A stretch of DNA of 64,000 bases from Actinomycetales bacterium (GCA_038330045.1 JBBQNO010000002.1:21635-85634), one strand, 5' to 3'; counted from the first letter of the stretch, positions 4,925-63,165 are shown. Notes: a model not told the origin generated them from the letters alone. Program-made: numbers and translations.

Positions 4925-4927
4925 GCG

Positions 4928-34297: not shown

Positions 34298-34302
34298 TTG
34301 CC

Positions 34303-34569: not shown

Positions 34570-34661
34570 CGACGTTTGTTCACCCGACCGAAGCGAGCGC
34601 GTGCTGAGGGCATACGGAACTGGCGCTCTAACGCCACAAGTGTATGCCGCTGATTCGTGAA

Positions 34662-35564: not shown

Positions 35565-35568
35565 CGAG

Positions 35569-35865: not shown

Positions 35866-36991
35866 CTTCCTGAACGAACGCTGCCCGGACCCTCGCCGTA
35901 TCGACCTTGCCGCCGGGCAGCCGAGGCAGCGCCGCCACCAGCGAGATCTGAGCCGGCAACGCGTAAGCGTTGAGCGAAGGCCGCAACTGGGAACGGAACC
36001 AACCGGTGGAATCGGCACGGGAACGTGGTGTGTCCATCGAATCGATATGTGTGACGACCATGGCGGCCACCCTCATGCCCCACTCGGCGTCCGGGATCCC
36101 TACGACGGCGGCCTCGGAGACTTCGTCGAGGGCGGTCAGGGCATCAACGACTGACTGCGGGTGCACTTTGTTCGCGCCGGTGTTGATCACGTCGTCGCTG
36201 CGACCCAAGATGCGCCAGCGCCCGGAGGCCATGCCGGGCTCGGGCCCATCCTCTATGCCGATATCACCCGTCTTGAACCACCTCTGCCCCTCGAGCGTCA
36301 CGAAGGCGGAGGCGGTGAGGTCGGGGCGGTCGGCATACTCCTGCGCCAGGGTTGGCCCGGCGATCAGTATGCGACCCGGCTCGCCGAGGGGACCGTCAGT
36401 GCGCAATCGCACACCCCGCAGCGGTATGCCGTCGTACACGCAGCCGCCTGACGTTTCGGTCATGCCGTAGGTGTGGGTCCAGGCCACCCTCGCCTCGGTG
36501 AGCCTGCTGGCGGTGGACGGCACCAGGGCCGCGCCGCCTATAAGGACCCGGTCAAACGAGGCTAACGCCTGCGACCCAGCAGAGGTGGAAAGCAGCCGAT
36601 GAATCTGGGTGGGCACCAACGAGACGTATCGGCGCTCCCCAGCGCTCATCCGCCCTACTGCCTGCACGAACGCCGCGCTGGTGAACGGAGCATCCGGGGT
36701 CATCTGCACGGGGTCGAGGCCGGAGATAAAGGAGCGGACCCAGACCTGCAAGCCGCCGATGTGTGTGGGGGACAGGGCAGATAACCATTGGCCGGCGCCG
36801 CCGAGTGCTGCGTGAGCGGCGTGCGCCGACGCGAGTAGCGCGCCGCTGGTCAGCACCACTGCGGTGGGATAGCCCGTCGACCCGGACGTGCTTACGACGA
36901 CTGACCCTTCGCGGGTGAGTTGGTGGCTCAGCGCAGCAAAGAAATGTGCGGGCACAGCACCACTGAAATCAAGGTGCTCGATGTCTGTCAC
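35852..36991 (-). CDS. menE: o-succinylbenzoate--CoA ligase
   Basis: STSGSTG, TYGMTET, FKTGDIG, GRSDDVINTG and LPGGK ANL motifs within the men cluster. Confidence 0.88.
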   Translation of the reverse strand: MTDIEHLDFSGAVPAHFFAALSHQLTREGSVVVSTSGSTGYPTAVVLTSGALLASAHAAHAALGGAGQWLSALSPTHIGGLQVWVRSFISGLDPVQMTPDAPFTSAAFVQAVGRMSAGERRYVSLVPTQIHRLLSTSAGSQALASFDRVLIGGAALVPSTASRLTEARVAWTHTYGMTETSGGCVYDGIPLRGVRLRTDGPLGEPGRILIAGPTLAQEYADRPDLTASAFVTLEGQRWFKTGDIGIEDGPEPGMASGRWRILGRSDDVINTGANKVHPQSVVDALTALDEVSEAAVVGIPDAEWGMRVAAMVVTHIDSMDTPRSRADSTGWFRSQLRPSLNAYALPAQISLVAALPRLPGGKVDTARVRAAFVQEDDRI

Positions 36992-37020
36992 GACCTACCG
37001 GTAACCGAGCGTGTGTGCGG

Positions 37021-37677
37021 TCATCCCTCGGGGGGAGGTGACAACTGGCTGAGGCCCAAGTCGACGAACCACTCGTCGTCGTACTTCTTCAGGACAAAAG
37101 TCTGCTCGCCAAAGCCTGCCGCAAATAAGTCGGAGAAATTATCCTTGTCGACCTTTGCGGTGTCCCCCTGCACGTCTGCACCGCTGATCTCCATGACCCC
37201 CAGGATTGCGGCCTCTTCCTTGGTGATCTCACCCTCGGTCTGAGCCGGGATGGTCTTTTTGCAAATCTCCAGGAGCTCTTCGTCGTCCTTCAACGGCCCC
37301 GTTCCCGCACCCTGGAGGTCGGCCATAAAGTTGCACATGTCGGGGTCGGCCTTGGTCAGCGCCGTGATGAACTCTTTGGTGACGTCGGCAGCCGCTTGAC
37401 CGTCGGCTCCGCCTTCGACATCTTCATCCGGCCCGCCGGTCGCCTTGGCGGTGTCGCCGGTGGCATCGGAGCTATCGCCGGTCGTTTCAGCCATGTCGTC
37501 GCCGGGGGCCGAGGTCGCCGTCGTCATCGCGGTGTCGCTCGTCATGGCGACGTCGTCGGGAGCCTGCCTAGCGCTGGTTGACCCGGCACCGTCGGCCGGG
37601 GTGTTCTCCTCGTCCGAACTGCACGCCGACAACGCAAGGGCGGGGACCGCAACAGCAATCACGAGTGCACGACGCAT
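37021..37677 (-). CDS. Hypothetical lipoprotein with Thr/Asp-rich linker
   Basis: Signal peptide ending LSAC, low-complexity linker, NTF2-like C-terminal region. Confidence 0.75.
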   Translation of the reverse strand: MRRALVIAVAVPALALSACSSDEENTPADGAGSTSARQAPDDVAMTSDTAMTTATSAPGDDMAETTGDSSDATGDTAKATGGPDEDVEGGADGQAAADVTKEFITALTKADPDMCNFMADLQGAGTGPLKDDEELLEICKKTIPAQTEGEITKEEAAILGVMEISGADVQGDTAKVDKDNFSDLFAAGFGEQTFVLKKYDDEWFVDLGLSQLSPPPEG

Positions 37678-37802
37678 GGTGGAGCCTTTCGAGCGTGAAG
37701 GAAATGAACGCCTTATGAGGCTACAGGCGGCAGCCCCTCGCGTCGAAGCCGTCGAGCAGACGTTCGAGCGGGTCAGGCGGGATCAGACGGGTGGGGGGCT
37801 AT

Positions 37803-38735
37803 TCAGAAGTACCAGGGGTATGCCGACCAGTCCGGTGCTCGCTTGTCCAAAAAGGCGTCTCGACCCTCCACCGCCTCGTCGGTCATGTAAGCCAATCGGG
37901 TGGCCTCACCGGCAAAGACCTGTTGCCCCATCAAGCCGTCGTCAGCCAGGTTGAACGCGAACTTCAGCATCCGTTGTGCGGTAGGCGACTTGCCGACGAT
38001 TTCGGCGGCCATCCTCAACGCCTCGCTCTCAAGATCGGCGTGGTTGACCACCAGGTTGACTGCGCCCATCCGCTGCATCGTTTCTGCGTCATACGTGCGG
38101 CCGAGGAAGAAGATTTCGCGCGCGTTCTTCTGTCCGACCATCCGGGCCAGGTATGCCGACCCGTAGCCGGCGTCGAAGCTGCCCACGTCGGCGTCGGTCT
38201 GCTTAAACCGGGCGTGCTCGCGGGAGGCAATCGTCAGATCGCAGACCACGTGTAGGGAGTGCCCACCGCCAGCAGCCCACCCGTTGACCACCGCCACCAC
38301 CACCTTGGGCATGGTGCGGATGAGGCGTTGGACCTCCAGGATGTGCAACCGGCCCCCGGCAGCCTTGACCCTCGCCTCGTCGACGGATTCGGCGCCTTCC
38401 CCGTCGGCATACTGATATCCGGAGCGACCCCGGATGCGCTGATCGCCACCAGAGCAGAAAGCCCGTCCGCCGTCTTTGTCACTGGGGCCGTTGCCGGTCA
38501 GCACGATGACGCCGACGTCGGGCGTCATCCGGGCGTGATCGAGTGCTCGATAGAGCTCGTCGACGGTGTGGGGGCGGAAGGCGTTGCGCACGTGGGGGCG
38601 GTCGAAGGCGATACGCACACACCCCGTGGACCGAGCCCGGTGGTAGGTGATGTCGCTGAAATCGAATCCGGACACCACGTCCCACGCCCCCGGATCGAAG
38701 GTTTCGGAAACGGCCACACTGGTGTCATCACTCAC
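37803..38735 (-). CDS. menB: 1,4-dihydroxy-2-naphthoyl-CoA synthase
   Basis: DITYHR, FDRPHVRNAFRP, FCSGGDQR, GGGHSLH, DVGSFDAGYG, EGRDAF. Start is GTG 38735 or ATG 38756. Confidence 0.96.
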   Translation of the reverse strand: MSDDTSVAVSETFDPGAWDVVSGFDFSDITYHRARSTGCVRIAFDRPHVRNAFRPHTVDELYRALDHARMTPDVGVIVLTGNGPSDKDGGRAFCSGGDQRIRGRSGYQYADGEGAESVDEARVKAAGGRLHILEVQRLIRTMPKVVVAVVNGWAAGGGHSLHVVCDLTIASREHARFKQTDADVGSFDAGYGSAYLARMVGQKNAREIFFLGRTYDAETMQRMGAVNLVVNHADLESEALRMAAEIVGKSPTAQRMLKFAFNLADDGLMGQQVFAGEATRLAYMTDEAVEGRDAFLDKRAPDWSAYPWYF

Positions 38736-38754
38736 AGCGCCCCAGACTAGGTGC

Positions 38755-39774
38755 ATGACGCAGCGCCGACCACAGGAGAGCCTGCCGACGGTCGAGGAAC
38801 TGCTCGAGGCGGCCCATGTGGTCGATCTTCCGCTGCGCGTGCCGTTTCGCAACATCGCCAGCCGTCAAACGATGCTCCTTCGTGGTCCGCGGGGGTGGGC
38901 CGAGTTCGGGCCTTTCGGTGAGTATGCCGACGCCGAAGCCGCCACCTGGCTGCGGTCGGCGATCGAGTCCGGGTGGGGTGACCCTGTGCCGACCATGCGG
39001 GATACCATCGAGGTCAATGCCACGGTGCCAGCGGTGCTGACGGGCGAGGTGCCGCGCATACTGGATGCCTTTCCTGGCTGCACGACGGCCAAGGTCAAGG
39101 TGGCTCAGTGGGGGCAGGGGCTCGAAGACGACCTCGCCCGGGTCAGCGCAGTCCGGGACCGACTCGGCCCTGGCGCGAAGGTGCGGGTGGACGCGAACGG
39201 GGCCTGGGATCTGCAGCAGGCGAGGCGCGCGCTGGCCGCCCTGTCGGCATACGACCTGGAGTATGCCGAGCAGCCCGTCGCCGATGTCGCGGACTTGGCG
39301 CGGCTCCGGGTAGCGCTCGCTGCCAGCGGCATCGACGTGCCGATCGCAGCCGACGAGTCGATTCGCCGAGCCGCCGACCCCATGCTCGTCGCGACGATGG
39401 AGGCGGCAGACCTCATCGTGGTCAAAGTGGCGCCACTGGGGGGAGTGAGCGCAGCGCTACAGATCGTGGCCGACTGTGGGTTGCCCGCGGTCGTCTCCTC
39501 AGCCCTCGACAGCTCGGTGGGTATCGCCGCCGGGGTGGCGCTGGCCTGCGCTTTGCCGGAGCTGCGTCACGCGTGCGGCCTGGGCACCGTGGCCCTGTTC
39601 GACGGCGACGTGTGCGCCGATCCGTTGCTGGTCACCGACGGGGTGCTGCGACGCAGTGATGCCGCGCGGGCTGTGCAGGCGGTTGATCCCAATCTTCTGC
39701 TGCGCTACCGCGCCCAACCAGAGATCACGTCGTGGTGGCACGATCGTGTTCGCCGCTGCCGCGAGTTGCTCTGA
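38755..39774 (+). CDS. menC: o-succinylbenzoate synthase
   Basis: GWAEFGPF, KVKVA, RVDANG, EQP, AADES, KVAPLGG, SSALD (enolase superfamily). Confidence 0.92.
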   Translation: MTQRRPQESLPTVEELLEAAHVVDLPLRVPFRNIASRQTMLLRGPRGWAEFGPFGEYADAEAATWLRSAIESGWGDPVPTMRDTIEVNATVPAVLTGEVPRILDAFPGCTTAKVKVAQWGQGLEDDLARVSAVRDRLGPGAKVRVDANGAWDLQQARRALAALSAYDLEYAEQPVADVADLARLRVALAASGIDVPIAADESIRRAADPMLVATMEAADLIVVKVAPLGGVSAALQIVADCGLPAVVSSALDSSVGIAAGVALACALPELRHACGLGTVALFDGDVCADPLLVTDGVLRRSDAARAVQAVDPNLLLRYRAQPEITSWWHDRVRRCRELL

Positions 39775-52246: not shown

Positions 52247-53443
52247 ATGGTTACCTTCCTGCACACCGCCGATTGGCAGATTGGGATGACCCGTCGCTGG
52301 TTGCAACCGGAGGCCCAAGCTCGATTCGACAGTGACCGCTTGGATGCGATCCGACGGGCGGGGGAGATTGCGCGCGCTCAGGGATGTGCCTTTGTCGTGG
52401 TGGCCGGTGACGTCTTCGAGAGCAGCCAATTGCGCCAAGGCACCGTCCTGCGAGCCCTGGAGGTCATGCGCGAGATCGAGTTGCCGGTCTACCTGCTTCC
52501 GGGCAATCACGACCCTCTGGACGCGATCAGCATCTATCGCCAACCGACGTTCTCCAATGCCTGTCCCAGCAACGTCACGGTGCTCGACTCGACGCAGTCC
52601 GTCGCGGTGGCGCCGGGAGTGGAGGTCATCGGGGCACCGTGGGCTGGCAAACTCCCTGGGCGCGACCTCGTCGGTGACGTAGTGACGTCGCTGCCGCCGG
52701 CCGATGGGACCGTCCGCATCGTGGTGGGTCACGGCATCGTGGATATTCTCGATCCCAGCGGGTCCAACCCGGCCGCCATTGACACGGCGTCCCTCGTGGC
52801 GGCTTTGGATCAGGGCCAGATCCACTACGTGGCGTTGGGCGACCGTCATTCGCGCACCGATGTCGGTGGGCACGGCACTATTTGGTATTCGGGAGCTGTC
52901 GAAGTCACCGACCCTCGAGAGGAAGCGCCCGGGGACGTTCTTGTCGTCACCGTCGACTCTGACGGGCCACCATCAGTCGCACACCACCACACGGGACGAT
53001 GGAACTTCGTGACCCTGCGCCGCGAGGTGGCCAGTGCCTACGATGTCGATGCGCTGGTCGCCGAATTGGCGGCGATGACCCACAAGGACACCGTGGTCTT
53101 GAAGCTGGCCCTTCAGGGCACCTTGGATCTTTTCGACTACACGAGACTGCACGAGCACCTTGACTCGCTGCGAACGATCTTCGGCGGTATGCACGATTGG
53201 GAACGGCACACCGATCTATCGGTGCGTGCTAGCGAGGCTCAGTGGTCAGCTCTCGGCCTGTCGGGGTATGTGTGCGACGCGGCTGACGAGATCAAAGTGC
53301 AACTTGCCCAACACGCGAGCGTCGATGCCCCACCGACGCCCGAGCCCGACTGGTTCTTCGATCCGCACCGTGGAGACGACAGCGATAGCGCCCGCGATGC
53401 GCTGGCTCTGCTCTATCGACTCAGTTCGGCGGCACAACGATGA
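52247..53443 (+). CDS. sbcD: SbcD/Mre11-like metallophosphoesterase nuclease
   Basis: HTADWQIG, VAGDVFE, LPGNHD, VGHG and YVALGDRH phosphoesterase motifs. Confidence 0.9.
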   Translation: MVTFLHTADWQIGMTRRWLQPEAQARFDSDRLDAIRRAGEIARAQGCAFVVVAGDVFESSQLRQGTVLRALEVMREIELPVYLLPGNHDPLDAISIYRQPTFSNACPSNVTVLDSTQSVAVAPGVEVIGAPWAGKLPGRDLVGDVVTSLPPADGTVRIVVGHGIVDILDPSGSNPAAIDTASLVAALDQGQIHYVALGDRHSRTDVGGHGTIWYSGAVEVTDPREEAPGDVLVVTVDSDGPPSVAHHHTGRWNFVTLRREVASAYDVDALVAELAAMTHKDTVVLKLALQGTLDLFDYTRLHEHLDSLRTIFGGMHDWERHTDLSVRASEAQWSALGLSGYVCDAADEIKVQLAQHASVDAPPTPEPDWFFDPHRGDDSDSARDALALLYRLSSAAQR

Positions 53444-56115
53444 GAATTCACCGTCTCTGCGTGCGCAACGTGAAGGGGATCACCGAGCGCACTTTGACGT
53501 TCCCCGATACCGGTGTGGTGGTGATCGAGGGGCCGAACGAGGTTGGCAAGTCAACGTTCTTAGAGGCCCTCGATCGACTCTTGGAGCCCAAGGCAAAGGC
53601 GTCATCAAAGGCAGCATCGATCGTCGGCCTTCAGCCAGTCGGTCAAGATGTGGGCCCCTTCGTTGAGGTTGAGATGAGCGTGGGGCCACACCGCCTGATC
53701 TTCGCCAAGCGGTGGTTACGCCAACCCACTACGACCCTCCTTGTCTTGAGCCCCGTGCCTGAGCAGTTGGCCGGGGAGGCCGCTCAGCAGCGGATGGACG
53801 CGATCATGGACGCCAGCGTCGACCGTCCGCTGCTGGACGCGCTTCGATTCGCGCAATCCGGCTCGTCGAGTCCTATCCGCCTCGGGGATAGTGCCGTCTT
53901 GCAAGCTGCCCTCGATGGTGCGGCTGGCGCGGATCTGTACTCGGCGGGCAGCGGCGATCTGCTGGATGCCGTCGAGACCGAGTACCGCCGGTATTACACC
54001 GTAGCGACCGGCCGACCGGCTGGCGACCTTCGCGCTGCCATCACGACGGCCAACGAGAGCCAGGATGCCGTCGTTGATGCCCATGGCGGCGTCTGTGAAG
54101 CGGAGGCCATCCTTGCCAAGCGTGACGAGGCCGCCGCGATGCATCAGGCGGCTCAGGGCACCGTCCCGGGTCACCGTAGAGCCTTGCTCGCCGCCGAGGG
54201 TGACTCAGAGCGGGTGGCTTCGCTGCGTGCCCAGGAGCAGCACGCGGCGCAACAACTGGCGGCAGCGACGTTGAACGCCCGTGCCGCTGAGTCTTTGGTG
54301 GTCGCGCGGCAAAGCCTCATCGATGATGCGGCACGGCGTTCGATGGCCGCTGCGGTGGTGACGACCCAGGCTGCGGAAGCGATGTCACGGGAGCAGGAGT
54401 TGGCGGCTGCACTGGCCGAAGCGACGGTCGCGTTGGATCACGCCCGCCGTGAGTGCGCCAGTGCGCAAGACGACGCGGATGAGGCCGCAGTATCTGTCCA
54501 GCGGCTGCAACTGCACACCGAGGTTGCCGCTCTCGAGGACCGGATAGAGGTTGCCGAGAGCGCTCACGCTGCGTTGGAGCATCACCGCGCTCAGTTAGCC
54601 CAATCGCTCGTGAGTCCTGATGTGTGGCGAGAGATTGAATGGTGCCAACAGCAGCTCGCTATCGCTGATGCGGCTTTGGAGGCCGGGTCCACCTCCGTCA
54701 GCATTAGCTCCCTTGTGGACGAGCAGCACCTTGAACACGACGGTCGCGCGCGCACTCTGAGCCCCGGCGAGCCCTCTGTGCAGGTCGTGGTGGAACGAGA
54801 ATCTGAGTTGATCATCAACGGCTGCGTGCGCGTCGGCCTGCGCCCACACGGAGATGTCGTGAAGCGGGCGGGCCACCGTGATCAGATGCGGGCTCAGCTG
54901 CATCGAGCCCTCAGCGACGTAGATGCCTGCGGTATCGAGCAGGCATCGCTGATGCATGAAGCGCACCAGCGGGCACGCGACGACGTGGCGCGCTCCGATA
55001 ACGCTCTCGCCGTGGCTCTGTCCGGAAGTACCCCGTCGGACCTACGCGGGCTCCTGATGCAGCGCCGCCGTGCCCTAAGCGACGTTGCCCGCGACGCCAG
55101 GACACTAGCGCCCGAAGAGGTTGCGACGCCGAGGGTAGGGCGCGACGAGGTGGATCAGGCGGTGCACGCAGCCAGGGCCCTTCAGGCTACGTTGCGGCCG
55201 CTGCGCAAGGTAAAGGATGCGGCCGAGGACGAAATTCGGCGCGTGCGTGACCTCCATGCGGCGGCCAAACAGGCCAGCGATATCGCACATAGTCAGCATG
55301 ACTCGGCAGCGGAGGAGTCCAGGCGCGCCGCGGAACGACTTGATGCGCAGCGTGAGGCGGCCTCAGACGGGGCGCTGGCCTCTGCGGCGGCGCATGCGGT
55401 CGAAGCAGAAGGTATAGAAGCAGCCACACGAGAGCACTTCCAGGACGCCTTGCGAGCCGCGAACTCAGCCGAGACCGACGAGCAACTCCGGCTGGCGACG
55501 TCGCAGTTGGCTCAGGCCCAGGCCGAGCAGGAACGTCTCGGTCACGCAGTGCAGCACCTCAACGGCCAACTGGAGATCACTGCGGGGGAGGGACGTCAGG
55601 AGATCTACGAGCGCGCAGTCCAAGCGTTCGAAGAGGCCAATCGGGCTCTGGCCTCTGTGGACCGTCGAGCGCGCGCGGCGCGTCAACTGCACCAGACCTT
55701 GCAACGCCACCGTGACCGCGCCCACGCCAGCTACGTCGCTCCCTACGCCCAAGAGATCGAACGGCTCGGTCGATCGCTGTACGGAGATTCGTTTGGGATC
55801 GAGATCAGCCCCAGCCTCGTCATCACCCACCGGCACCTGTACGGCGCCACCGTCGCCTTCGACCAGCTGTCGGGGGGCGCGAAGGAGCAACTCGGAATTG
55901 TCGCCCGCCTTGCCGTGGCGATGCTGGTCGAATCTGATCAATCAGTGCCTGTCGTGATCGACGATGCGCTGGGCTACACCGATCCCCAGAGGCTGAAACT
56001 GCTGGGATCGGTGTTGGGTGGCAGTGATCATCGAGGGCAGATCATCCTCTTGACGTGCACTCCTGACCGGTATCGCGCCATCCCGGGTGCCGAAACGGTG
56101 CGTCTGACTGCCTGA
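53440..56115 (+). CDS. sbcC: SbcC/Rad50-like SMC ATPase
   Basis: Walker A GPNEVGKST, long coiled coil, signature LSGG, Walker B/D-loop VIDDALGYTD. Start overlaps the sbcD stop. Confidence 0.88.
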   Translation: MRIHRLCVRNVKGITERTLTFPDTGVVVIEGPNEVGKSTFLEALDRLLEPKAKASSKAASIVGLQPVGQDVGPFVEVEMSVGPHRLIFAKRWLRQPTTTLLVLSPVPEQLAGEAAQQRMDAIMDASVDRPLLDALRFAQSGSSSPIRLGDSAVLQAALDGAAGADLYSAGSGDLLDAVETEYRRYYTVATGRPAGDLRAAITTANESQDAVVDAHGGVCEAEAILAKRDEAAAMHQAAQGTVPGHRRALLAAEGDSERVASLRAQEQHAAQQLAAATLNARAAESLVVARQSLIDDAARRSMAAAVVTTQAAEAMSREQELAAALAEATVALDHARRECASAQDDADEAAVSVQRLQLHTEVAALEDRIEVAESAHAALEHHRAQLAQSLVSPDVWREIEWCQQQLAIADAALEAGSTSVSISSLVDEQHLEHDGRARTLSPGEPSVQVVVERESELIINGCVRVGLRPHGDVVKRAGHRDQMRAQLHRALSDVDACGIEQASLMHEAHQRARDDVARSDNALAVALSGSTPSDLRGLLMQRRRALSDVARDARTLAPEEVATPRVGRDEVDQAVHAARALQATLRPLRKVKDAAEDEIRRVRDLHAAAKQASDIAHSQHDSAAEESRRAAERLDAQREAASDGALASAAAHAVEAEGIEAATREHFQDALRAANSAETDEQLRLATSQLAQAQAEQERLGHAVQHLNGQLEITAGEGRQEIYERAVQAFEEANRALASVDRRARAARQLHQTLQRHRDRAHASYVAPYAQEIERLGRSLYGDSFGIEISPSLVITHRHLYGATVAFDQLSGGAKEQLGIVARLAVAMLVESDQSVPVVIDDALGYTDPQRLKLLGSVLGGSDHRGQIILLTCTPDRYRAIPGAETVRLTA

Positions 56116-57656: not shown

Positions 57657-58472
57657 ATGAAGACATCCCGCCCCCTTTGGTGCTGCCTGGCGGCGCTGAC
57701 TTTGACGTTATCGGCGTGTGACGCGGCCAGTGATGACGCTGGACCAACGACCATCGACGCAGATGTACTAGGAACGTCTGGGCCTGTAGATAGCGACGGT
57801 TCCACCGCTACCGGCTCGGGAAGCGACATGGATGCTTCGACGGCCACCGGCAGGCAAGATGACCTCGACCTCTCCACCGCGACGGGGCCCGGGGATTCAG
57901 ATCTGGCCACGAGCACTGGTCCCCGTGCGGGAGACCGGGCCTCCACAACCGCCTCAGGTGACGGCGCGGCTGCCACGGGATCGGCTTCTGCGGCTGCTGC
58001 TCCCACCGAGGCTCCCGACGACGCGGGCTTGGACGACCCCTCGCTCGACCCGGTCGAGGCTAAGGCTGACTCGCAGGACGGTCTGCTTGCCACCACCGTG
58101 AGCGTCGGTGTGTATCCCGACTACGACCGCGTCACCTTTAACCTCGAAGGCGTGGGCGCACCCGGATACAGCGTCCGCTACGCCGAGGAGGCCGTCGAGG
58201 ACGGCAGCGGCGCCCGTTTAGAAGTCGACGGTGACGCGGTGCTGCAGGTGACCATCACGGGCACGCGCTATCCCGACGAAGGCGAAACCTACGAAGGCGG
58301 TCCTGGCACGTTCTCGCCAGATGGCACCGAAGAGGTGGAGCAAGTGCGACTGTTGAGTACTTTCGAGGGTCAGACGCAGGCTTTCATCGGCATCGACGAC
58401 GCTGACACGCCCTTCCGGGTCTTCACCTTGAGTGAGCCCGCCCGGCTCGTGGTCGACGTGGTCCACAAGTAG
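57657..58472 (+). CDS. Lipoprotein with Ser/Thr-rich repeat linker and actinobacterial AMIN-like C-terminal domain
   Basis: Lipobox LSAC, STATG repeats, and DYDRVTFNL..PGYSVRY..FEGQTQAFIG..FRVFTLSEPARLVVDV. Confidence 0.8.
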   Translation: MKTSRPLWCCLAALTLTLSACDAASDDAGPTTIDADVLGTSGPVDSDGSTATGSGSDMDASTATGRQDDLDLSTATGPGDSDLATSTGPRAGDRASTTASGDGAAATGSASAAAAPTEAPDDAGLDDPSLDPVEAKADSQDGLLATTVSVGVYPDYDRVTFNLEGVGAPGYSVRYAEEAVEDGSGARLEVDGDAVLQVTITGTRYPDEGETYEGGPGTFSPDGTEEVEQVRLLSTFEGQTQAFIGIDDADTPFRVFTLSEPARLVVDVVHK

Positions 58473-58489
58473 CAACTCTCGCCCATACA

Positions 58490-58530
58490 CAAGGTCGCCC
58501 ACTCGGAACGTCTTCGAGTGGGCGACCTTG
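58490..58530. terminator. Bidirectional terminator ending the acuI operon and the lipoprotein gene
   Basis: caaggtcgcccactcg / cgagtgggcgaccttg perfect 16-bp stem. Confidence 0.85.
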
Positions 58531-58542
58531 TGCGTTGATCGG

Positions 58543-59535
58543 TTAAGCGTTGGGATTGACCACGATACGGCCCCTCGTCTTGCCAGCTATGATCTCGGCA
58601 CCGTGGCCTAGCACCTCGCTCATTGGGACGACCGTGGTCAGGTCTTCCAGCAACGCCGTGGGCAGATCGGTGGCCAACCTGGCCCAGGCACGCTCGCGCA
58701 GATCGGTGGGAGCTTGCACCGAATCGATGCCCTGCAAGCGCACACCGCGCAAAATGAACGGCATGACGGTGGCGGGCAGGTCCACGCCGCCCGCGAGTCC
58801 ACAGGCGGTCACGACGCCGCTGTACTTCGTTTGGGCGATGACCTTGGCGAGCATCGTGGAGCCGACCGTGTCGACCGCACCGGCCCACGTCTCGGCTTCC
58901 AACGGCTTCGGTGGGCTGGTCATCTCGTCTCGGGCTAGGAAGGCCGAGGCCCCAAGGCTGGCCAGGTAGGCGTGCTGTTCGGGGCGACCGGTGACGGCGG
59001 TGACGGCATACCCCAGATTTGCGAGGATCGCGGTGGCGACGCTGCCGACCCCGCCTGCTGCGCCGGTGACCGCGATGGGGCCCCGCTCGGGGGTGACACC
59101 GCCGTCTTCGAGCCCCATCACGCACAGCATCGCGGTTAAGCCGGCGGTGCCGATCCCCATGGCCTGCACGGCGCTCATCGCGTCGGGCCGCTTCACGAGC
59201 CAGTCGGCGCGGACCCGCTGGCGCTGGGTGTAGCCGCCCCAATAGCGCTCACCGACCGACCAGCCGGTCAAGATCACTGCGTCACCGGGAGCAAAACGAT
59301 CAGTCTCGCTGGACACGACGGTGCCGGTGAGGTCAATGCCGGGGACCATCGGGAAGGAGCGGATGATGCGAGTTTCCCCGGTCAGGGCCATACCGTCCTT
59401 GTAGTTCAACGACGAGTAGTCCACGTCGACGACCACGTCGCCCTCGGGTAGTTCTGAGTCGGTGAGTTGCTCGATGGCGGTACTCTGCCCGTCGTCGGTC
59501 GAACGGATGACGAGGGCGTTGAAGGTGTCGCTCAT
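58543..59535 (-). CDS. acuI: Acryloyl-CoA reductase AcuI (YhdH/YhfP family MDR oxidoreductase)
   Basis: YSSLNYKDG, PMVPGIDLTGTV, TGWSVGERYWGGY, GTAGLTAML, VTGAAGGVGS, PFILRGV.LQGIDSV. Confidence 0.9.
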   Translation of the reverse strand: MSDTFNALVIRSTDDGQSTAIEQLTDSELPEGDVVVDVDYSSLNYKDGMALTGETRIIRSFPMVPGIDLTGTVVSSETDRFAPGDAVILTGWSVGERYWGGYTQRQRVRADWLVKRPDAMSAVQAMGIGTAGLTAMLCVMGLEDGGVTPERGPIAVTGAAGGVGSVATAILANLGYAVTAVTGRPEQHAYLASLGASAFLARDEMTSPPKPLEAETWAGAVDTVGSTMLAKVIAQTKYSGVVTACGLAGGVDLPATVMPFILRGVRLQGIDSVQAPTDLRERAWARLATDLPTALLEDLTTVVPMSEVLGHGAEIIAGKTRGRIVVNPNA

Positions 59536-61664
59536 GATGTGCTCCTGAGGGCGTGGGGGATGACGAGGGCGTCGAGGGCCATGCAGCCGTCGGCCGTGAC
59601 CGACAACGGGTTGACGTCGAGCTCGGCGATCAGATCACCGAGGTCTGCGGCTAGGTCTGAGAGCGCAACCAAAGCGGCCACGACGGAGGCAATATCGACC
59701 CCTTGGCGGCCCCTGACACCGTCGAGGATGGGCTTGATAGCGAGTTTGCTGATCATGGTTGAGGCGATCGGGGCATCGATGGGCACCAAGCCCAACTGTC
59801 GATCCCCGAGAACTTCGATGAAGATGCCGCCGCCGGCGACCAGCACCATGGACCCGAACTGGGGATCAGAGACGACACCGAGAGCCATCTCGACCGCCGG
59901 CAGCATCATGGACGCGACCAGCACCTCCGGGCCTAAGCGGGCGGCCAGATCGGAATAGGCCTCGCTGACCTCCTCGGCATTGGCGAGGTTCAGGATCACT
60001 CCACCGGACTCTGACTTATGCAAAATGCCGGGGGCGGCGGTTTTGAGGACAACAGGAAAGCCCAGGTCTTCTGCGGAGGCTAGGGCTTCGGGCTCGCTGA
60101 CCACCACCGCGTGCGGCATGACGGGCACGCCATAGTCGCTTAGCAGGGTTAAACCCTCGCTCTCGGTGAGCGCCTCTGGCTTGCTTAGGCGTGCACGCCA
60201 CCGTGCGGTCACCTCTGGCGGGGGCGCGATGGGCGCTGCGATCGTGTTGCGCCGGGTGAAGTCGCGGTAGGCGAGCGCGTGCTTGACCGCCAGCAGTCCC
60301 GCCACGGTGCCATCGAGCACAGGCACACCCATGTTGGTCATCCGCTTGGCCAGATCTTGAGATTCAGTGCCGATGTGGTTGGTCAGCATGGCCACGGGTT
60401 TGCCGGTGCGCCGGTGCACGCGACGGCAAATCCGAGCGAAGGACTCGTGAAGGTAGAAACCGGAACTGAGATCGGCAACGAAGACACCCATGGCGGTGTC
60501 CGGGTCGTCCATCAGCGCCTGCCAGCAACGTTCAAAGATGGTTTGGTAGTCGCGGCCGGTGCCCCACGCATCGAGTGGGTTGATGGGCTCGAGGCCGTGG
60601 TCGAGGTGGTCGGCCAACACTTGCGTGGTCTCGTCGTTGACCTGGGCAAACGGCACACCTACGTCGTCCGCGATGTCGAGCATCAGTTCTCGCTCGCCGC
60701 CGGAGTCGAAGATTGCGGCGAGTCCACCGCGGGCGGGGCGTCGCGGGTTGGACAGCAACTGCGTGGTCGAGGCTAGCTCGTCGAGGGACTTCACGGACAA
60801 CACGCCATACCGCTCAAACAGCGTTTGGTATGCCGCGTCGTCGCCGGCAATGGCGCCCGAGTGACTGAGCGCGAGGTGGGCTGCTTCGGGGGTGCGGCCG
60901 GCCTTGAGCGCAATCACGGGGATGTCACGCTCCGCGGCTTTGCGCAGCGCCGCGACGAAGCCGGCCGGGTTGCGAACGGTCTCGATGAACAGCGCGATGG
61001 CGGTCGTGCTCTTCTGATCTAAGGCGTAATCCATGTAGTCGGACGTGGTGGTCACGAGCTCTTGGCCAGGGGAAATCGCCAAGTTGAAGCGCAACTTCTG
61101 GTCGTTCCACAGCAGTGCCGTCAGCACCGAACCAGACTGCGCGATGAAGGTGACGCCGCCTTCGGTCAGCTCGTAGGGGCGGTGGAAGGGCAGGGTGCGA
61201 AACCATCGCTCGACGTTGTAGAAGCCCATGCAGTTGCCGCCGACGATCGGCAGATTGGCGGCACGAGCCAGGTCACGGACCCGCTCGCGCAAGGGGTATG
61301 CCGGGTCGTCGCCGGTCACCGACAGGCTGCCGGGGATGACGAGGCCGCCGACCCCCAACTCGATGGCGGTCCTGACCTGCTCTTCGATCCCGCCGTTGGC
61401 GACTCCTAAAACGGCAAGGTCAGGCACGCTCGGGAGGTCACGCAGGGTGGGGTAGCACGGCAACCCCTCGACCTCGGCATATTTCGGGTTGACGGGGTAG
61501 ATCGCGCCCGGAAATCGCGCCACCTGCAACTCTAAGATGACGTCGTTGCCCGGCACGTTGGGCATCGTCGAGGCCCCTAACAAGGCTACGGATCGGGGCG
61601 CAAGCATGCGCTCAAGCCGGTGAGCGCTGCGCGGTGCTGCAGCTGGCTGTGCTTCACCGTCCAT
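59532..61664 (-). CDS. ADP-forming acyl-CoA synthetase (ACD superfamily); candidate DddX-like DMSP lyase
   Basis: CoA-binding (PRSVALLGAS, YPVNP, GGNCMG), SQSG-like AQSG, phospho-His motif SHSGAIAG (H268), NPLD, ATP-grasp (FPVVLK, HKSESGGV, DPQFG, ELDVNPL). Family is certain; substrate is inferred. Confidence 0.9.
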   Translation of the reverse strand: MDGEAQPAAAPRSAHRLERMLAPRSVALLGASTMPNVPGNDVILELQVARFPGAIYPVNPKYAEVEGLPCYPTLRDLPSVPDLAVLGVANGGIEEQVRTAIELGVGGLVIPGSLSVTGDDPAYPLRERVRDLARAANLPIVGGNCMGFYNVERWFRTLPFHRPYELTEGGVTFIAQSGSVLTALLWNDQKLRFNLAISPGQELVTTTSDYMDYALDQKSTTAIALFIETVRNPAGFVAALRKAAERDIPVIALKAGRTPEAAHLALSHSGAIAGDDAAYQTLFERYGVLSVKSLDELASTTQLLSNPRRPARGGLAAIFDSGGERELMLDIADDVGVPFAQVNDETTQVLADHLDHGLEPINPLDAWGTGRDYQTIFERCWQALMDDPDTAMGVFVADLSSGFYLHESFARICRRVHRRTGKPVAMLTNHIGTESQDLAKRMTNMGVPVLDGTVAGLLAVKHALAYRDFTRRNTIAAPIAPPPEVTARWRARLSKPEALTESEGLTLLSDYGVPVMPHAVVVSEPEALASAEDLGFPVVLKTAAPGILHKSESGGVILNLANAEEVSEAYSDLAARLGPEVLVASMMLPAVEMALGVVSDPQFGSMVLVAGGGIFIEVLGDRQLGLVPIDAPIASTMISKLAIKPILDGVRGRQGVDIASVVAALVALSDLAADLGDLIAELDVNPLSVTADGCMALDALVIPHALRSTS

Positions 61665-62418
61665 ACGTCTCCTTCACGAGTGATGTGGTGCGCGCGGCCA
61701 GCGCCTTCTGAGCCTGGTCGCAGATGACGCTGAGGTGATCCACCTGCGCTTGTACGGTGCTCCTCGCTGCACCGGCGTCCTGATCGAAAATCGCCTTCAG
61801 GAGCTGACGCTGGAGGGCGAGCACATCAACTCGGCGGCGGAGCCGGTTGATGATGAGGTTGGTGCTTGGGTGCAGGGCTTCGAGGGCGAAGACCATGACG
61901 TAGTCCAAGACGGGGTTGTGCGCGGCTCGCACGATGGCGCGGTGGAAGGCCACGTCGGCCTCGCAGAACTGCTCGTCGCTCAACTCTTCCCTCTCCTGGG
62001 TCGCGATGATCTCGCCCAAGTCAACGAGGTCGTCATGGGTGCGACGGGCCGCGGCCAGGGTTGCGCACTCGGCCTCCAACAATCGACGGCTTTCGGCGAC
62101 ATCGGTAAGGGTGAAGATCTGATGGCTGACCAGCAGGGTGGCCGTCGTGCGAAGGTCGGTCCGGACTTGCTCGTCGGTAGGCACGCTCACGAAGTTGCCT
62201 CCGCTGACGCCGCGCTTGGAACGGATGAGGTTTTTAGCGGCAAGGCGTTTCAGGGCTTCGCGGATGGTGGGTCGCGAGACGCCGAACGAGTCGGCCAAGT
62301 CGGACTCGGTCGGTAGGCGCTGATCGAGGGTGAGTTCGCCGCTCAAAATTTGCGCGCGAATGGCCTCGGCGATCTGATCAGGGAGGCTGCTCGCATCGCT
62401 GGCGAACTGGGCTGACAC
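61654..62418 (-). CDS. FadR/GntR family regulator, DmdR-like
   Basis: RLPTESDLADSFGVSRPTIREALKRLAA HTH and an FCD domain (DVAFHRAIVRAAHNP). It heads an overlapping operon with the ACD ligase and acuI. Confidence 0.9.
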   Translation of the reverse strand: MSAQFASDASSLPDQIAEAIRAQILSGELTLDQRLPTESDLADSFGVSRPTIREALKRLAAKNLIRSKRGVSGGNFVSVPTDEQVRTDLRTTATLLVSHQIFTLTDVAESRRLLEAECATLAAARRTHDDLVDLGEIIATQEREELSDEQFCEADVAFHRAIVRAAHNPVLDYVMVFALEALHPSTNLIINRLRRRVDVLALQRQLLKAIFDQDAGAARSTVQAQVDHLSVICDQAQKALAARTTSLVKETYGR

Positions 62419-62453
62419 AAGCGTGAGCCTGCCACTGGTACAGCGTTTCCGTC

Positions 62454-62470
62454 AATAGGTCAGATCTATT
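62454..62470. promoter_or_regulatory. FadR-type operator upstream of the GntR gene
   Basis: AATAG-GTC-A-GAT-CTATT near-palindrome resembling GGTCNGACC. It abuts a minus-strand TTGACG -35. Confidence 0.65.
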
Positions 62471-62533: not shown

Positions 62534-62764
62534 ATGCGCACCACGGTTGTTCTGCCCCCATCGGTGCACAGACGTGCGCTGGACATGGCTCAGCGCCAAC
62601 ACCGTTCACCATCTGCAGTCGTTGCTGATTTGACGCTCAAAGGCCTCGCGCAGGTGGACGACCCTGTCATTTTCTCGGTCGATCAACACTCAGGTTTGCC
62701 CGTCTTGTCGCTTGGCCGGACGCTTGGCTCTCACGAGGTGGCAGACCTGCTGGACGAGGAGTGA
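62534..62764 (+). CDS. vapB: VapB antitoxin (RHH/CopG-like)
   Basis: MRTTVVLP..SPSAVVADL..GLPVLSLGRTL.S.EVADLLDEE; overlaps the PIN gene by 4 nt. Confidence 0.85.
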   Translation: MRTTVVLPPSVHRRALDMAQRQHRSPSAVVADLTLKGLAQVDDPVIFSVDQHSGLPVLSLGRTLGSHEVADLLDEE

Positions 62765-63165
62765 CGCGATATCTGCTGGATGCGAACGTGCTGATCGCTC
62801 TGGTCGTTGCTGAGCACGAGCATCATCAGGCGGCGAGCATATGGTTCGCCGACGTTGACGAGTTTTTAGTGTGTCCCATCGTCGAAGGGGCGCTTGTACG
62901 CACGTTACTGCGCCTTGGTGAGTCTGGTCACACGGCGCAACGATTGCTTTGTGATGTGCGCGCAGACGCGAGGTGCACCTTCGTGCCGGACTCGATTTCA
63001 TATGGCGAATTTGATCTTGCTGGGCTTCGGGACCATCGCCAGGCCACCGATGCCTACCTTGTCGGCTTGGCGGCGGGCAACGACTCGCTTCTGGTCACTT
63101 TTGACCGTGCTTTGGCAGATCGGAATCAGTCGTCGTCGCTTTTGCTTTGGGTGAAGTCGGCTTAG
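62761..63165 (+). CDS. vapC: VapC PIN-domain ribonuclease toxin
   Basis: YLLDANVLIAL, VEGA, TDAYLVGLA and LVTFD acidic PIN residues. Confidence 0.9.
   Translation: MTRYLLDANVLIALVVAEHEHHQAASIWFADVDEFLVCPIVEGALVRTLLRLGESGHTAQRLLCDVRADARCTFVPDSISYGEFDLAGLRDHRQATDAYLVGLAAGNDSLLVTFDRALADRNQSSSLLLWVKSA

What the first reader, a model, noticed from the sequence alone, without database searches (positions are those of the whole stretch)
58543..62418. Candidate actinobacterial DMSP/acrylate catabolic operon: DmdR-like regulator, DddX-like ACD enzyme, AcuI
Seen in sequence: three minus-strand genes overlap (11 nt and 4 nt), share one operator-bearing promoter and end at one strong terminator, so they form a tight operon. 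The middle gene is a 710-aa single-chain ADP-forming acyl-CoA synthetase, and the last is a textbook AcuI. Established knowledge: AcuI reduces toxic acryloyl-CoA to propionyl-CoA and is commonly linked to DMSP genes. DddX (Psychrobacter sp. D2) is an ACD-superfamily enzyme converting DMSP + CoA + ATP to DMS + acryloyl-CoA. As far as I know it was reported from Proteobacteria and Firmicutes, while DMSP-cleaving Actinobacteria often lack known ddd genes. Inference: this operon makes acryloyl-CoA (from DMSP, or by activating acrylate) and removes it at once, which would be a missing Gram-positive DMSP route. Caveat: no BCCT (dddT) transporter is adjacent in this window.
Basis: partly seen in the sequence, partly recalled or inferred. 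Interest (0 to 1): 0.92.

Follow-up and report, generated by a model that had tools for sequence, protein, structure and literature searches.

The report
Actinobacterial DddX-family plus AcuI operon

Summary
Three minus-strand genes encode a GntR/FCD regulator, a 710-aa single-chain ADP-forming acyl-CoA synthetase (ACD) and AcuI. They overlap by 11 and 4 nt. A conserved operator/promoter lies upstream and a strong hairpin lies downstream.

The ACD meets the published sequence criteria for a DddX homologue. It is 31% identical to Psychrobacter DddX over 91% coverage, and His292, Trp391 and Glu432 are conserved. It is 60% identical to a Marinobacterium jannaschii protein; Li et al. 2021 showed a homologue from that species to cleave DMSP.

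Its family forms one clade (bootstrap 84). All 135 sequences at least 50% identical carry the His/Trp/His-Glu signature; none of 77 at 35-45% identity do. Family genes are often next to acryloyl-CoA consumers (AcuI or an enoyl-CoA hydratase). About 30 protein clusters are natural ACD-AcuI fusions. The product is therefore very probably acryloyl-CoA.

The physiological substrate is unproven. No transporter is linked, and the sequence occurs in soil and freshwater-sediment metagenomes. Acrylate, 3-hydroxypropionate or other beta-substituted propionates remain possible.

DmdR orthology could not be tested. Actinobacterial dddX homologues were already noted in 2026 metagenomic work.

Verdict: a new member of a known kind, of moderate interest.

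The parts
62454..62470 (-). Operator: 17-bp near-palindrome AATAGATCTGACCTATT (core ATC-T-GAC, FadR-family type). It overlaps the -35 element.
   Evidence: Unique in the window, 0 expected by chance. Conserved in 13 of 13 GntR-linked orthologous loci across two actinobacterial classes. Absent elsewhere in 1.44 Mb of loci.
62426..62455 (-). Inferred promoter: -35 TTGACG (62455-62450), 18-nt spacer, -10 CAGGCT (62431-62426). The GTG start lies 7 nt downstream, so the mRNA is probably leaderless.
   Evidence: Read directly from the sequence. A TTGAC -35 follows the operator in the Ornithinimicrobium-type and some Ilumatobacter-type orthologous loci. The E. coli consensus scan did not find it. This is an inference.
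61654..62418 (-). Autoregulated FadR-subfamily GntR regulator (GntR HTH + FCD domain), 254 aa, first gene of the operon.
   Evidence: Pfam GntR 1e-20 and FCD 1.1e-17. Below every NCBIfam equivalog cut-off. Orthologues sit upstream of the ACD only in AcuI-linked versions of the locus.
59532..61664 (-). DddX-family single-chain ADP-forming acyl-CoA synthetase/lyase, 710 aa. Key residues: H268 (phosphohistidine), W367, H406-E407.
   Evidence: Pfam architecture. Best PDB hit by sequence is 7cm9 DddX, and it is also the best by structure at TM 0.81-0.83. hhalign against the DddX clade gives E 2e-107. 60% identical to the M. jannaschii homologue. Signature and clade analysis.
58543..59535 (-). AcuI/YhdH-type NADPH acryloyl-CoA reductase, 330 aa.
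   Evidence: NCBIfam NF051456 scores 449.8 bits, above the cut-off of 440. PDB hits: 5gxe R. pomeroyi AcuI 4.6e-112 and 1o89 E. coli YhdH 1.5e-111. Fused to the ACD in about 30 homologous protein clusters.
58487..58533 (-). Terminator-like hairpin (19-bp stem, 9-nt loop) lying 10 nt after the acuI stop codon. It is shared with the convergent gene 57657-58472.
   Evidence: RNA fold of -42.3 kcal/mol, z = -5.72, and 0 of 200 shuffles fold as well. Sequence read.

Best explanation
This is a compact, self-repressed detoxifying catabolic module.

1. Without inducer, the FadR-type GntR repressor binds the palindromic operator that overlaps the -35 element, shutting off its own three-gene transcript. 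This step is inferred.
2. When induced, the DddX-family ACD uses ATP and CoA, through a phosphohistidine at H268. It thioesterifies a 3-substituted propionate, most probably DMSP by homology, or a close analogue.
3. The ACD then eliminates the beta-leaving group, with E407 as the base and W367 holding the onium group. This releases DMS and acryloyl-CoA.
4. The translationally coupled AcuI immediately reduces the toxic acryloyl-CoA to propionyl-CoA with NADPH.

Shown here: gene order, domain families, conserved residues, the conserved operator, the recurrent adjacency or fusion with AcuI, and family membership alongside the M. jannaschii protein.

Inferred: the substrate, the effector, and that the M. 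jannaschii protein found here is the one assayed by Li et al.
For: 1. Published DddX criteria are met. Identity is 31.2%, coverage 91%, and E = 9e-83 at a RefSeq-like database size. H292, W391 and E432 align with H268, W367 and E407 in phmmer, hhalign and L-INS-i alignments.
2. The protein is 60% identical over residues 15-709 to the M. jannaschii DSM 6295 protein. Li et al. purified a M. jannaschii DddX homologue and showed DMSP conversion to acryloyl-CoA (PMC8163506).
3. The core family, which includes the M. jannaschii-like protein P0090, is monophyletic in a neighbour-joining tree with bootstrap 84/100.
4. The H/W/H-E signature is present in 135 of 135 sequences at least 50% identical to the window protein, and in 0 of 77 at 35-45%. 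Below 35% it reappears in 18 of 143 sequences, 16 of them in the verified DddX clade.
5. Product logic. About 30 clusters are ACD-AcuI fusions with variable linkers, and some still keep the AcuI start Met. Of 80 species-level loci, 22 have AcuI fused or adjacent and 14 have an adjacent enoyl-CoA hydratase.
6. Verified dddX clusters carry the same accessory genes. Sporosarcina P33 has dddX-BCCT-ECH plus an AcuI homologue 43% identical to the window AcuI. Psychrobacter P11G5 has dddB/C-like genes, dddX, BCCT and ECH.
7. A 59%-identical Neptunomonas relative sits in an ACD-ECH-LysR-dehydrogenase-BCCT-aldehyde dehydrogenase cluster, which is like a ddd cluster.
8. AcuI passes its equivalog cut-off.
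9. The operator is footprinted phylogenetically.
Against: - No transporter or other ddd gene is linked, either in the window or in its 92%-identical synteny partner.
- The operon is held by soil, freshwater-sediment, terrestrial and outdoor metagenomes, where DMSP is not an obvious major substrate.
- The family is not sister to the Psychrobacter DddX clade in the neighbour-joining tree. Overall identity to that clade is only about 30%, a level that generic ACDs without Trp391 also reach.
- DddX Tyr181 and Asp208 are Leu and Thr here, and the Phe435 equivalence is ambiguous.
- A DddX-like enzyme that lacks Trp391 and Glu432 still cleaves DMSP (PMC13543886). The signature is therefore not strictly required, and in-vitro DMSP cleavage may be a common side activity of ACDs.
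- Half of the family loci (40 of 80) have no acryloyl-CoA-consuming neighbour.
- The paper gives no accession for the M. jannaschii protein it tested.
Confidence: 0.55

Rival explanations
1. The ACD is a plain ADP-forming acrylate-CoA ligase. The operon then imports no onium compound. It activates free acrylate to acryloyl-CoA, and AcuI reduces that to propionyl-CoA for assimilation or detoxification.
For: No BCCT or ABC transporter is linked, and the host is non-marine. The tight AcuI coupling and the fusions fit any enzyme that makes acryloyl-CoA. Li et al. did not test acrylate as a DddX substrate, only acetate and propionate.
Against: A simple ligase needs no general base, yet H406-E407 and W367 are invariant in the family and shared with verified DddX enzymes. 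The M. jannaschii family member was reported to act on DMSP. The Neptunomonas relative is linked to a BCCT transporter.
Confidence: 0.2
2. The ACD is a 3-hydroxypropionate-CoA ligase in a reductive 3-HP assimilation route: 3-HP to 3-HP-CoA, then acryloyl-CoA, then propionyl-CoA. The dehydratase (an enoyl-CoA hydratase) would be encoded elsewhere in this genome.
For: ACD-ECH-AcuI trios occur in Tabrizicola, Pseudogemmobacter, a Burkholderiales MAG and Paraburkholderia. From my own knowledge, these three activities mirror those of propionyl-CoA synthase, and AcuI is needed for 3-HP assimilation in Rhodobacter. ADP-forming 3-HP-CoA ligases do exist (9y43).
Against: The operon has no ECH, and the only ECH in the window is next to MenE/MenA-like genes and is probably MenB. 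Direct ACD-AcuI fusions without an ECH domain argue that the ACD product is itself the AcuI substrate. The NCBIfam 3-HP-CoA ligase equivalog scores 290 bits against a cut-off of 1300, and the domain order differs from 9y43.
Confidence: 0.1
3. The enzyme does DddX-type chemistry on a different beta-substituted propionate that is commoner on land, such as DMSOP or a nitrogen analogue like beta-alanine betaine. It would still give acryloyl-CoA, with a different leaving group.
For: The host is non-marine. The Paraburkholderia nemoris relative sits beside a dimethylglycine-dehydrogenase-like gene, ETF genes and an ABC transporter. DddX also cleaves DMSOP (PMC10686828). The conserved Trp and Glu fit an onium substrate.
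Against: No member has been tested on such substrates. This rests purely on chemical analogy.
Confidence: 0.1
4. The ACD is an ordinary acetate or short-chain acyl-CoA ligase that merely happens to sit beside an MDR oxidoreductase.
For: Sources annotate the family as 'acetate--CoA ligase family protein'. The fold is nearly as close to PatZ and to 4-hydroxybutyrate-CoA synthetase as it is to DddX.
Against: All NCBIfam acetate, 3-HP and 4-HB ligase equivalog cut-offs are missed by a factor of 4-5. Recurrent fusion to AcuI is hard to explain. Psychrobacter DddX has no activity on acetate or propionate.
Confidence: 0.05

Closest known systems
DddX, the ATP-dependent DMSP lyase of Psychrobacter sp. 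D2 (PDB 7CM9; Li et al. 2021, PMC8163506)
   Same: Same single-chain ACD architecture. It is the best PDB match by both sequence and fold. His292, Trp391 and His431-Glu432 are conserved. Verified clusters also carry ECH and, in Sporosarcina, an AcuI homologue.
   Different: Only about 30-31% identical, and not a sister clade in the neighbour-joining tree. Tyr181 and Asp208 are replaced. There is no adjacent BCCT, dddB or dddC. The phylum and the regulator differ.
Marinobacterium jannaschii DddX homologue (activity reported in Li et al. 2021)
   Same: 60% identical over nearly the full length, in the same monophyletic core family, with the same NPLDAWGTG and LHESFA motifs.
   Different: Its partner gene is an enoyl-CoA hydratase rather than AcuI. 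It has a LysR-type regulator and an amino-acid-type ABC transporter upstream. Whether this locus encodes the exact protein that was assayed is inferred, not documented.
DddX-like enzyme of Neptunicoccus cionae H-12 (PMC13543886)
   Same: An ACD-superfamily enzyme that makes DMS and acryloyl-CoA from DMSP with ATP, CoA and Mg2+.
   Different: That enzyme has Thr and Trp where DddX has Trp391 and Glu432. The window protein keeps the DddX residues.
AcuI / YhdH acryloyl-CoA reductase (R. pomeroyi 5GXE, E. coli 1O89)
   Same: E about 1e-112 to both, and above the NCBIfam equivalog cut-off.
   Different: Here it is translationally coupled to a CoA ligase/lyase, and physically fused to it in relatives. 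In Roseobacters it is coupled to dmdA.
DmdR, the acryloyl-CoA-sensing FadR-type repressor of dmdA-acuI in Ruegeria pomeroyi (PMC12992908)
   Same: A FadR-subfamily GntR regulator that controls an acuI-containing operon and itself. Its palindromic operator has a GTC-N-GAC-type core and overlaps promoter elements.
   Different: The window regulator is co-transcribed as the first gene rather than divergent. It has one operator rather than two boxes. Sequence orthology and the effector were not tested. The operator core is generic to the FadR family.
acuR-acuI-dddL operon of Rhodobacter sphaeroides, and propionyl-CoA synthase of Chloroflexus (from my own knowledge, not checked here)
   Same: The first is a regulator + acuI + DMSP-lyase operon. 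The second is a natural fusion of a CoA ligase with an acryloyl-CoA reductase.
   Different: The protein families differ for the regulator (TetR) and the lyase (cupin). Pcs uses an AMP-forming ligase and includes a dehydratase domain.

Membership tests
DddX (operational definition of Li et al. 2021) | ACD-superfamily single chain: CoA-binding + succinyl-CoA-ligase-like flavodoxin + ATP-grasp domains | tested here: met
   Pfam CoA_binding_2 1.6e-20, Succ_CoA_lig 2.7e-40, ATP-grasp_5 2.1e-56. AF2 model has pLDDT 86, and the best fold match is 7cm9 at TM 0.81-0.83.
DddX (operational definition of Li et al. 2021) | BLASTP to Psychrobacter DddX with E < 1e-75, coverage > 70%, identity > 30% | tested here: met
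   31.2% identity, 91% coverage, E = 9e-83 with the database size set to 1e11 residues. The identity margin is narrow, and a Trp391-less Nonomuraea ACD also passes these thresholds.
DddX (operational definition of Li et al. 2021) | His292 (phosphohistidine), Trp391 (cation-pi) and Glu432 (catalytic base) present | tested here: met
   These correspond to H268, W367 and E407 (preceded by H406) in phmmer, hhalign and L-INS-i alignments. They are invariant in the family. A large automatic MAFFT alignment misplaced the Glu region, so the call rests on the three focused alignments.
DddX (operational definition of Li et al. 2021) | Secondary pocket residues Tyr181, Asp208 and Phe435 | tested here: not met
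   Tyr181 is Leu and Asp208 is Thr. Phe435 aligns with F409 in phmmer but falls in a DddX-specific insertion in hhalign. In DddX the Y181A and D208A mutants kept about 40% activity, so these residues are not strictly defining.
DddX (operational definition of Li et al. 2021) | Clusters phylogenetically with experimentally verified DddX enzymes | tested here: inconclusive
   The protein is in one clade (bootstrap 84) with a protein 93% identical to the M. jannaschii homologue. That clade is not sister to the Psychrobacter/Sporosarcina clade in the neighbour-joining tree. The identity of the assayed M. jannaschii protein is not documented.
DddX (operational definition of Li et al. 2021) | ATP-, CoA- and Mg-dependent conversion of DMSP to DMS + acryloyl-CoA | not testable with these tools
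   Needs an enzyme assay.
DddX gene cluster | Linked BCCT/ABC betaine-type transporter and ddd/acu catabolic genes | tested here: inconclusive
   acuI is linked, but there is no BCCT or other transporter in the operon, and phmmer with a BCCT query found none in the 64-kb window. BCCT linkage is seen only in the Neptunomonas relative.
AcuI / YhdH acryloyl-CoA reductase | Score above the NCBIfam equivalog cut-off, and close similarity to characterised AcuI | tested here: met
   NF051456 scores 449.8 bits against a cut-off of 440. Hits to 5gxe at 4.6e-112 and 1o89 at 1.5e-111.
DmdR (PMC12992908) | At least 30% identity and 70% coverage to R. pomeroyi DmdR (SPO1912) | not tested
   The DmdR sequence could not be obtained with the tools, and no supplement is held. 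Only the GntR + FCD family level is shown.
DmdR (PMC12992908) | Divergently transcribed from an acuI-containing operon, with palindromic dmd boxes in the intergenic promoter | tested here: not met
   The regulator is co-directional and is the first gene of the operon. It has one palindrome, not two boxes. The GTC-N-GAC-like core is generic to the FadR family.
DmdR (PMC12992908) | Acryloyl-CoA as the de-repressing effector | not testable with these tools
   Needs EMSA or MST with the purified protein.
Characterised ADP-forming acetate-, 3-hydroxypropionate- and 4-hydroxybutyrate-CoA ligases | NCBIfam equivalog cut-offs | tested here: not met
   303 bits against 1200, 290 against 1300, and 259 against 1300.

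The most novel reading that the evidence does not exclude
The DddX-family/AcuI pair is a dedicated two-step machine that turns DMSP, or a related onium propionate, straight into propionyl-CoA plus DMS without releasing free acryloyl-CoA. The pair is separate but translationally coupled here, and is fused into one polypeptide of about 1050 aa in Ilumatobacter, Woeseiaceae, Halieaceae and some Ornithinimicrobium. If so, widespread Actinomycetota and sediment Gammaproteobacteria, including non-marine ones, would be unrecognised DMS producers. The GntR regulator would be an independent, non-DmdR solution to sensing this pathway.
Probability: 0.3. Interest if true: 0.7.

Novelty: new member of a known kind. 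Interest (0 to 1): 0.55.

Why it matters
- DddX is the only DMSP lyase that yields acryloyl-CoA directly. The fate of that toxic product was left as 'dotted lines' in the original paper.
- The operon here and the natural DddX-family/AcuI fusions in relatives are genomic evidence that AcuI is the cognate downstream enzyme. The module appears to be selected for immediate removal of the product.
- The finding places a DddX-family enzyme with intact catalytic residues in cultivable-type Actinomycetota (Micrococcales). It also supplies a conserved operator and repressor that could be tested directly.
- It raises the question of what the family does in soils and freshwater sediments, where DMSP is not the expected substrate.
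- It does not by itself explain the DMSP-cleaving actinobacteria of Liu et al. 2018, which were reported to lack dddX.

Tried and rejected
- **Large alignment.** An automatic MAFFT alignment of 344 ACDs placed DddX Glu432 and Phe435 opposite Gly and Leu. I rejected this in favour of three concordant focused alignments.
- **Sister-clade test.** I tested whether the family and the Psychrobacter DddX clade are sisters. They were not recovered as sisters (0/100 bootstraps). My first definition of the family was not monophyletic until two divergent 48%-identical sequences were excluded.
- **Consensus scans.** The sigma-70 and intrinsic-terminator scans found neither the promoter nor the hairpin, which fall outside the tool's criteria.
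- **Gene look-ups.** The window's own gene call (P0001) and the Nocardioides protein P0068 were not on record.
- **M. jannaschii accession.** I looked for the accession of the assayed protein in the eLife text and supplements and found nothing.
- **DmdR sequence.** No supplement is held for the DmdR paper, so orthology was not tested.
- **Plasmid collection.** A tblastn search gave only distant (35-42%) ACDs and no useful context.
- **Other genes in the window.** phmmer searches for BCCT, AcuH-like ECH, DddC-like and DddB-like genes found only a weak ECH match, to an ORF that carries ECH domains and sits beside MenE/MenA-like genes, so probably MenB.
- **Literature.** There are no papers linking Ornithinimicrobium to DMSP, and none other than the eLife paper that mention AcuI, ADP-forming and acryloyl-CoA together.
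- **Fold search.** It confirms the superfamily but does not separate DddX from PatZ or 4-HB-CoA synthetase.

Full report
**1. Observation**

- 61654-62418: 254 aa, GTG start.
- 59532-61664: 710 aa.
- 58543-59535: 330 aa.

They overlap by 11 nt and 4 nt.

Pfam and NCBIfam give the following:
- The first protein has GntR + FCD domains.
- The second has CoA_binding_2 + Succ_CoA_lig + ATP-grasp_5, the single-chain ADP-forming acyl-CoA synthetase (ACD) architecture.
- The third is an MDR protein scoring 449.8 bits on the NCBIfam equivalog 'acrylyl-CoA reductase (NADPH) AcuI' (cut-off 440).

The AcuI protein matches R. pomeroyi AcuI (5gxe) and E. coli YhdH (1o89) at E about 1e-112.

Some database gene calls start the ACD at Met34. 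However, family-invariant residues P23, S25, A27, G30 and S32 lie upstream of Met34, so the 710-aa form is right.

**2. Promoter, operator and terminator**

Upstream of the regulator's GTG lies AATAGATCTGACCTATT (62454-62470). Seven of its eight arm pairs are complementary. It is unique in the window, with none expected by chance.

I aligned the upstream regions of the orthologous regulator in 13 loci, from Ornithinimicrobium-like Micrococcales to Ilumatobacter (Acidimicrobiia). The block CAATWGRTCTGACCTATTG is conserved in all 13, while the flanks are unrelated. In 1.44 Mb of related loci it occurs only at this position. This is a phylogenetic footprint of a real operator.

- Its core (ATC-T-GAC here, GTC-T-GAC in L040) fits the FadR-family motif GTM-N-KAC quoted in PMC12992908.
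- In the window the operator runs into a TTGACG -35 element. An 18-nt spacer and a CAGGCT -10 follow.
- The GTG start is 7 nt beyond the -10, so a leaderless, self-repressed transcript is likely. This is inferred.

Ten nt after the acuI stop codon, a 19-bp hairpin (58487-58533) folds at -42.3 kcal/mol with z = -5.7. It has no U-tract and also ends the convergent AMIN-like gene. The E. coli-style scans missed both features; their stated criteria exclude them.

**3. Surroundings**

The flanks are unrelated to the operon.
- Upstream and divergent: a PIN-domain toxin (62761-63165) with a 76-aa upstream partner (62534-62764).
- Downstream: an AMIN-like protein, an NlpC/P60 hydrolase and an SbcCD-like pair.
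- Further away: a class-III aminotransferase (HemL-like), ResB/CcsB, MenA/MenE/MenB-like genes, Amt, an MFS transporter, GGT and CNNM.
- phmmer found no BCCT transporter and no DddB/C-like gene in the 64 kb.

A contig carrying a 92%-identical ACD shows the same synteny. The closest named relatives are Ornithinimicrobium, Dermatophilaceae and 'Actinomycetales' MAGs. Runs holding the operon are soil, freshwater-sediment, terrestrial and outdoor metagenomes.

**4. What the ACD is**

*Similarity to DddX.*
- The best solved-structure match by sequence is 7cm9, the DMSP lyase DddX (E 4e-87). It ranks ahead of the archaeal 3-hydroxypropionate- and 4-hydroxybutyrate-CoA ligases and PatZ.
- An AF2 model (pLDDT 86) also matches 7cm9 best, at TM 0.81-0.83. 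PatZ and the 4-HB enzyme are close behind.
- All NCBIfam equivalogs for known ADP-forming ligases are missed by a factor of 4-5.

*Published criteria.* Li et al. 2021 defined DddX homologues by BLASTP E < 1e-75, coverage > 70%, identity > 30%, and the presence of His292, Trp391 and Glu432. The window protein gives 31.2% identity, 91% coverage and E = 9e-83 at a RefSeq-like database size.

*Key residues.* Three independent alignments align H268, W367 and H406-E407 with His292, Trp391 and His431-Glu432:
- pairwise phmmer;
- profile-profile hhalign (E 2e-107 over 675 columns);
- L-INS-i of both clades.

Tyr181 and Asp208 are Leu and Thr. The Phe435 equivalence is ambiguous. A large automatic MAFFT alignment shifted the Glu region, and I set it aside.

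**5. A closer, experimentally relevant relative**

The Psychrobacter DddX clade proper (at least 55% identity) holds only Psychrobacter and Bacillota. The M. jannaschii and Pelagicola enzymes that Li et al. also purified and found active must therefore lie among the roughly 30% hits.

The genome scan found a M. jannaschii DSM 6295 protein that is 60% identical to the window ACD over residues 15-709. It passes the same DddX criteria (31.3% identity, E 1.7e-90).

The paper gives no accession, so it is an inference that this is the assayed protein. The inference is supported by the rarity of the signature outside these two clades, shown next.

I aligned about 370 ACDs to a seed HMM. The His/Trp/His-Glu signature is distributed as follows:

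| Identity to the window protein | Sequences with the signature |
|---|---|
| 50% or more | 135 of 135 |
| 45-50% | 8 of 16 |
| 35-45% | 0 of 77 |
| below 35% | 18 of 143 (16 of them in the verified DddX clade) |

In a neighbour-joining tree, the core family is monophyletic with bootstrap 84/100. It includes the window protein, the fused forms, a protein 93% identical to the M. jannaschii one, Neptunomonas and Burkholderia. The DddX clade is monophyletic (100/100) but is not sister to the core family.

**6. What the product is**

Among the 120 best homologues, about 30 protein clusters of 1033-1083 aa are ACD-AcuI fusions.
- They occur in Ilumatobacter and Ilumatobacteraceae, Woeseiaceae, Halieaceae, Aldehydirespiratoraceae and one Ornithinimicrobium MAG.
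- Their linkers vary from 10 to 50 residues. In some, the linker still ends with the Met that begins AcuI.

In 80 species-level genome loci:

| Neighbour of the ACD | Loci |
|---|---|
| AcuI fused | 11 |
| AcuI adjacent | 8 |
| AcuI and an enoyl-CoA hydratase (ECH) | 3 |
| ECH only | 11 |
| Neither | 40 |
| Contig truncated | 7 |

The GntR regulator accompanies only the AcuI-linked versions.

Verified dddX clusters have the same accessory genes:
- Sporosarcina P33 has dddX-BCCT-ECH plus an AcuI homologue 43% identical to the window's.
- Psychrobacter P11G5 has Fe-ADH, aldehyde dehydrogenase, dddX, BCCT and ECH.
- A 59%-identical Neptunomonas relative lies in ACD-ECH / LysR / 3-hydroxyacid dehydrogenase / BCCT / aldehyde dehydrogenase, a layout like a ddd cluster.

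Both recurrent partners, AcuI and an AcuH-like hydratase, act on acryloyl-CoA. I therefore rate 'the ACD makes acryloyl-CoA' at about 0.8.

**7. What the substrate is**

This is the weak point.

*For DMSP:*
- the shared catalytic signature;
- the reported activity of the M. jannaschii homologue;
- the BCCT linkage in Neptunomonas.

*Against DMSP as the physiological substrate here:*
- no transporter is linked;
- the host is non-marine;
- family members occur in Paraburkholderia, Burkholderia cenocepacia, Mesorhizobium and many soil MAGs.

*Other cautions:*
- A DddX-like enzyme without Trp391 and Glu432 also cleaves DMSP (PMC13543886). DMSP cleavage may therefore be an easy activity for ACDs, and the signature is not strictly required.
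- Acrylate was not tested on DddX.
- The ACD-ECH-AcuI trios in some Proteobacteria would equally fit 3-hydroxypropionate assimilation.
- The ECH-less operon here, and the ECH-less fusions, argue against 3-HP as the direct substrate.
- The Paraburkholderia neighbourhood (dimethylglycine-dehydrogenase-like gene, ETF genes, ABC transporter) hints at betaine-type substrates.

**8. The regulator**

DmdR (PMC12992908) is a FadR-type GntR repressor of dmdA-acuI. Its effector is acryloyl-CoA, and its 13-bp boxes have a GTC-A-GAC core.

- The window regulator shares the family, the link to acuI and the operator type.
- It is co-directional rather than divergent, and it has a single palindrome.
- Its best NCBIfam similarities are NanR, LldR, GlcC and PdhR, all far below their cut-offs.
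- I could not obtain a DmdR sequence.

'DmdR-like' is therefore an analogy, not a demonstrated membership.

**9. Novelty**

- DddX and its Gram-positive (Bacillota) members are known (2021).
- dddX homologues in Acidimicrobiia were reported from Southern Ocean metagenomes in 2026.
- I found no description of the GntR-dddX-acuI operon, its operator or the DddX-AcuI fusions. The searched library does not cover all journals.

The window feature is best filed as a new member of a known kind. The fusions in relatives are a noteworthy variant.

**10. Verdict**

- Best explanation (confidence 0.55): a self-repressed module in which a DddX-family enzyme makes acryloyl-CoA from DMSP or a close analogue, and AcuI removes it.
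- Rivals: acrylate-CoA ligase 0.2; 3-HP route 0.1; other beta-substituted propionate 0.1; generic ligase 0.05.
- Interest: 0.55.

Noticed in passing
Relatives: P0013, P0021-P0028, P0030, P0069-P0083; loci L001, L015, L018, L031-L035, L038-L040, L051: Natural single-polypeptide fusions of the DddX-family ACD with AcuI (1033-1083 aa), joined by variable Pro/Ala/Ser/Thr-rich linkers. They occur in Ilumatobacter, Woeseiaceae, Halieaceae, Aldehydirespiratoraceae and one Ornithinimicrobium MAG. I found no description of them in the searched literature.
   Followed up: partly
window 62534-63165 (+): A VapBC-like toxin-antitoxin pair lies divergent from the operon: a 76-aa ORF with no Pfam hit overlaps by 4 nt a PIN-domain protein (134 aa). 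The pair is conserved at the same place in the 92%-identical contigs L002 and L003.
   Followed up: partly
window 58487-58533: The strong hairpin sits between two convergent genes (acuI and the AMIN-like gene ending at 58472), so it may act as a bidirectional terminator. It has no U-tract on the acuI strand.
   Followed up: partly
L006/L007 (Paraburkholderia nemoris), 1-13009: An AcuI-like gene, the ACD and an ECH lie directly downstream of a dimethylglycine-dehydrogenase-like gene, ETF alpha and beta genes and an ABC transporter. This suggests a betaine-type substrate for the family in soil bacteria.
   Followed up: no
L042 (Marinobacterium jannaschii), 2084-12926: The ACD-ECH pair follows a LysR gene, an amino-acid-type ABC transporter, and DUF1611, MR_MLE-epimerase and Ala_racemase_N genes. 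It is unclear whether these belong to the same pathway. An AcuI homologue lies about 9 kb upstream.
   Followed up: no
L012-L014, L017, L020-L030, L036, L041, L046, L052, L088: A large group of actinobacterial family members (70-73% identical; Nocardioides, Marmoricola, soil MAGs) keeps the full His/Trp/His-Glu signature. They stand alone, with no AcuI, ECH, GntR or transporter neighbour.
   Followed up: partly
L056, L057, L054: LysR | ACD-ECH-AcuI trios occur in Tabrizicola, Pseudogemmobacter and a Burkholderiales MAG. The three activities mirror those of propionyl-CoA synthase, so these loci could serve 3-hydroxypropionate assimilation as well as DMSP.
   Followed up: no
window 31590-38855: A housekeeping block with ResB/CcsB cytochrome c biogenesis genes next to MenA-, MenE- and MenB-like menaquinone genes. 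The MenB-like ECH is the only crotonase-family gene detected in the window.
   Followed up: partly
window 52247-56115 (+): An SbcD-like metallophosphoesterase (398 aa) overlaps an 891-aa SbcC-like ATPase with a long Ala/Glu/Arg/Gln-rich middle region.
   Followed up: no
L010, L011: Two Ornithinimicrobium-type loci (79-80% identical ACD, with AcuI adjacent) showed no GntR homologue or operator upstream, unlike their closest relatives. The regulator may have been replaced.
   Followed up: no
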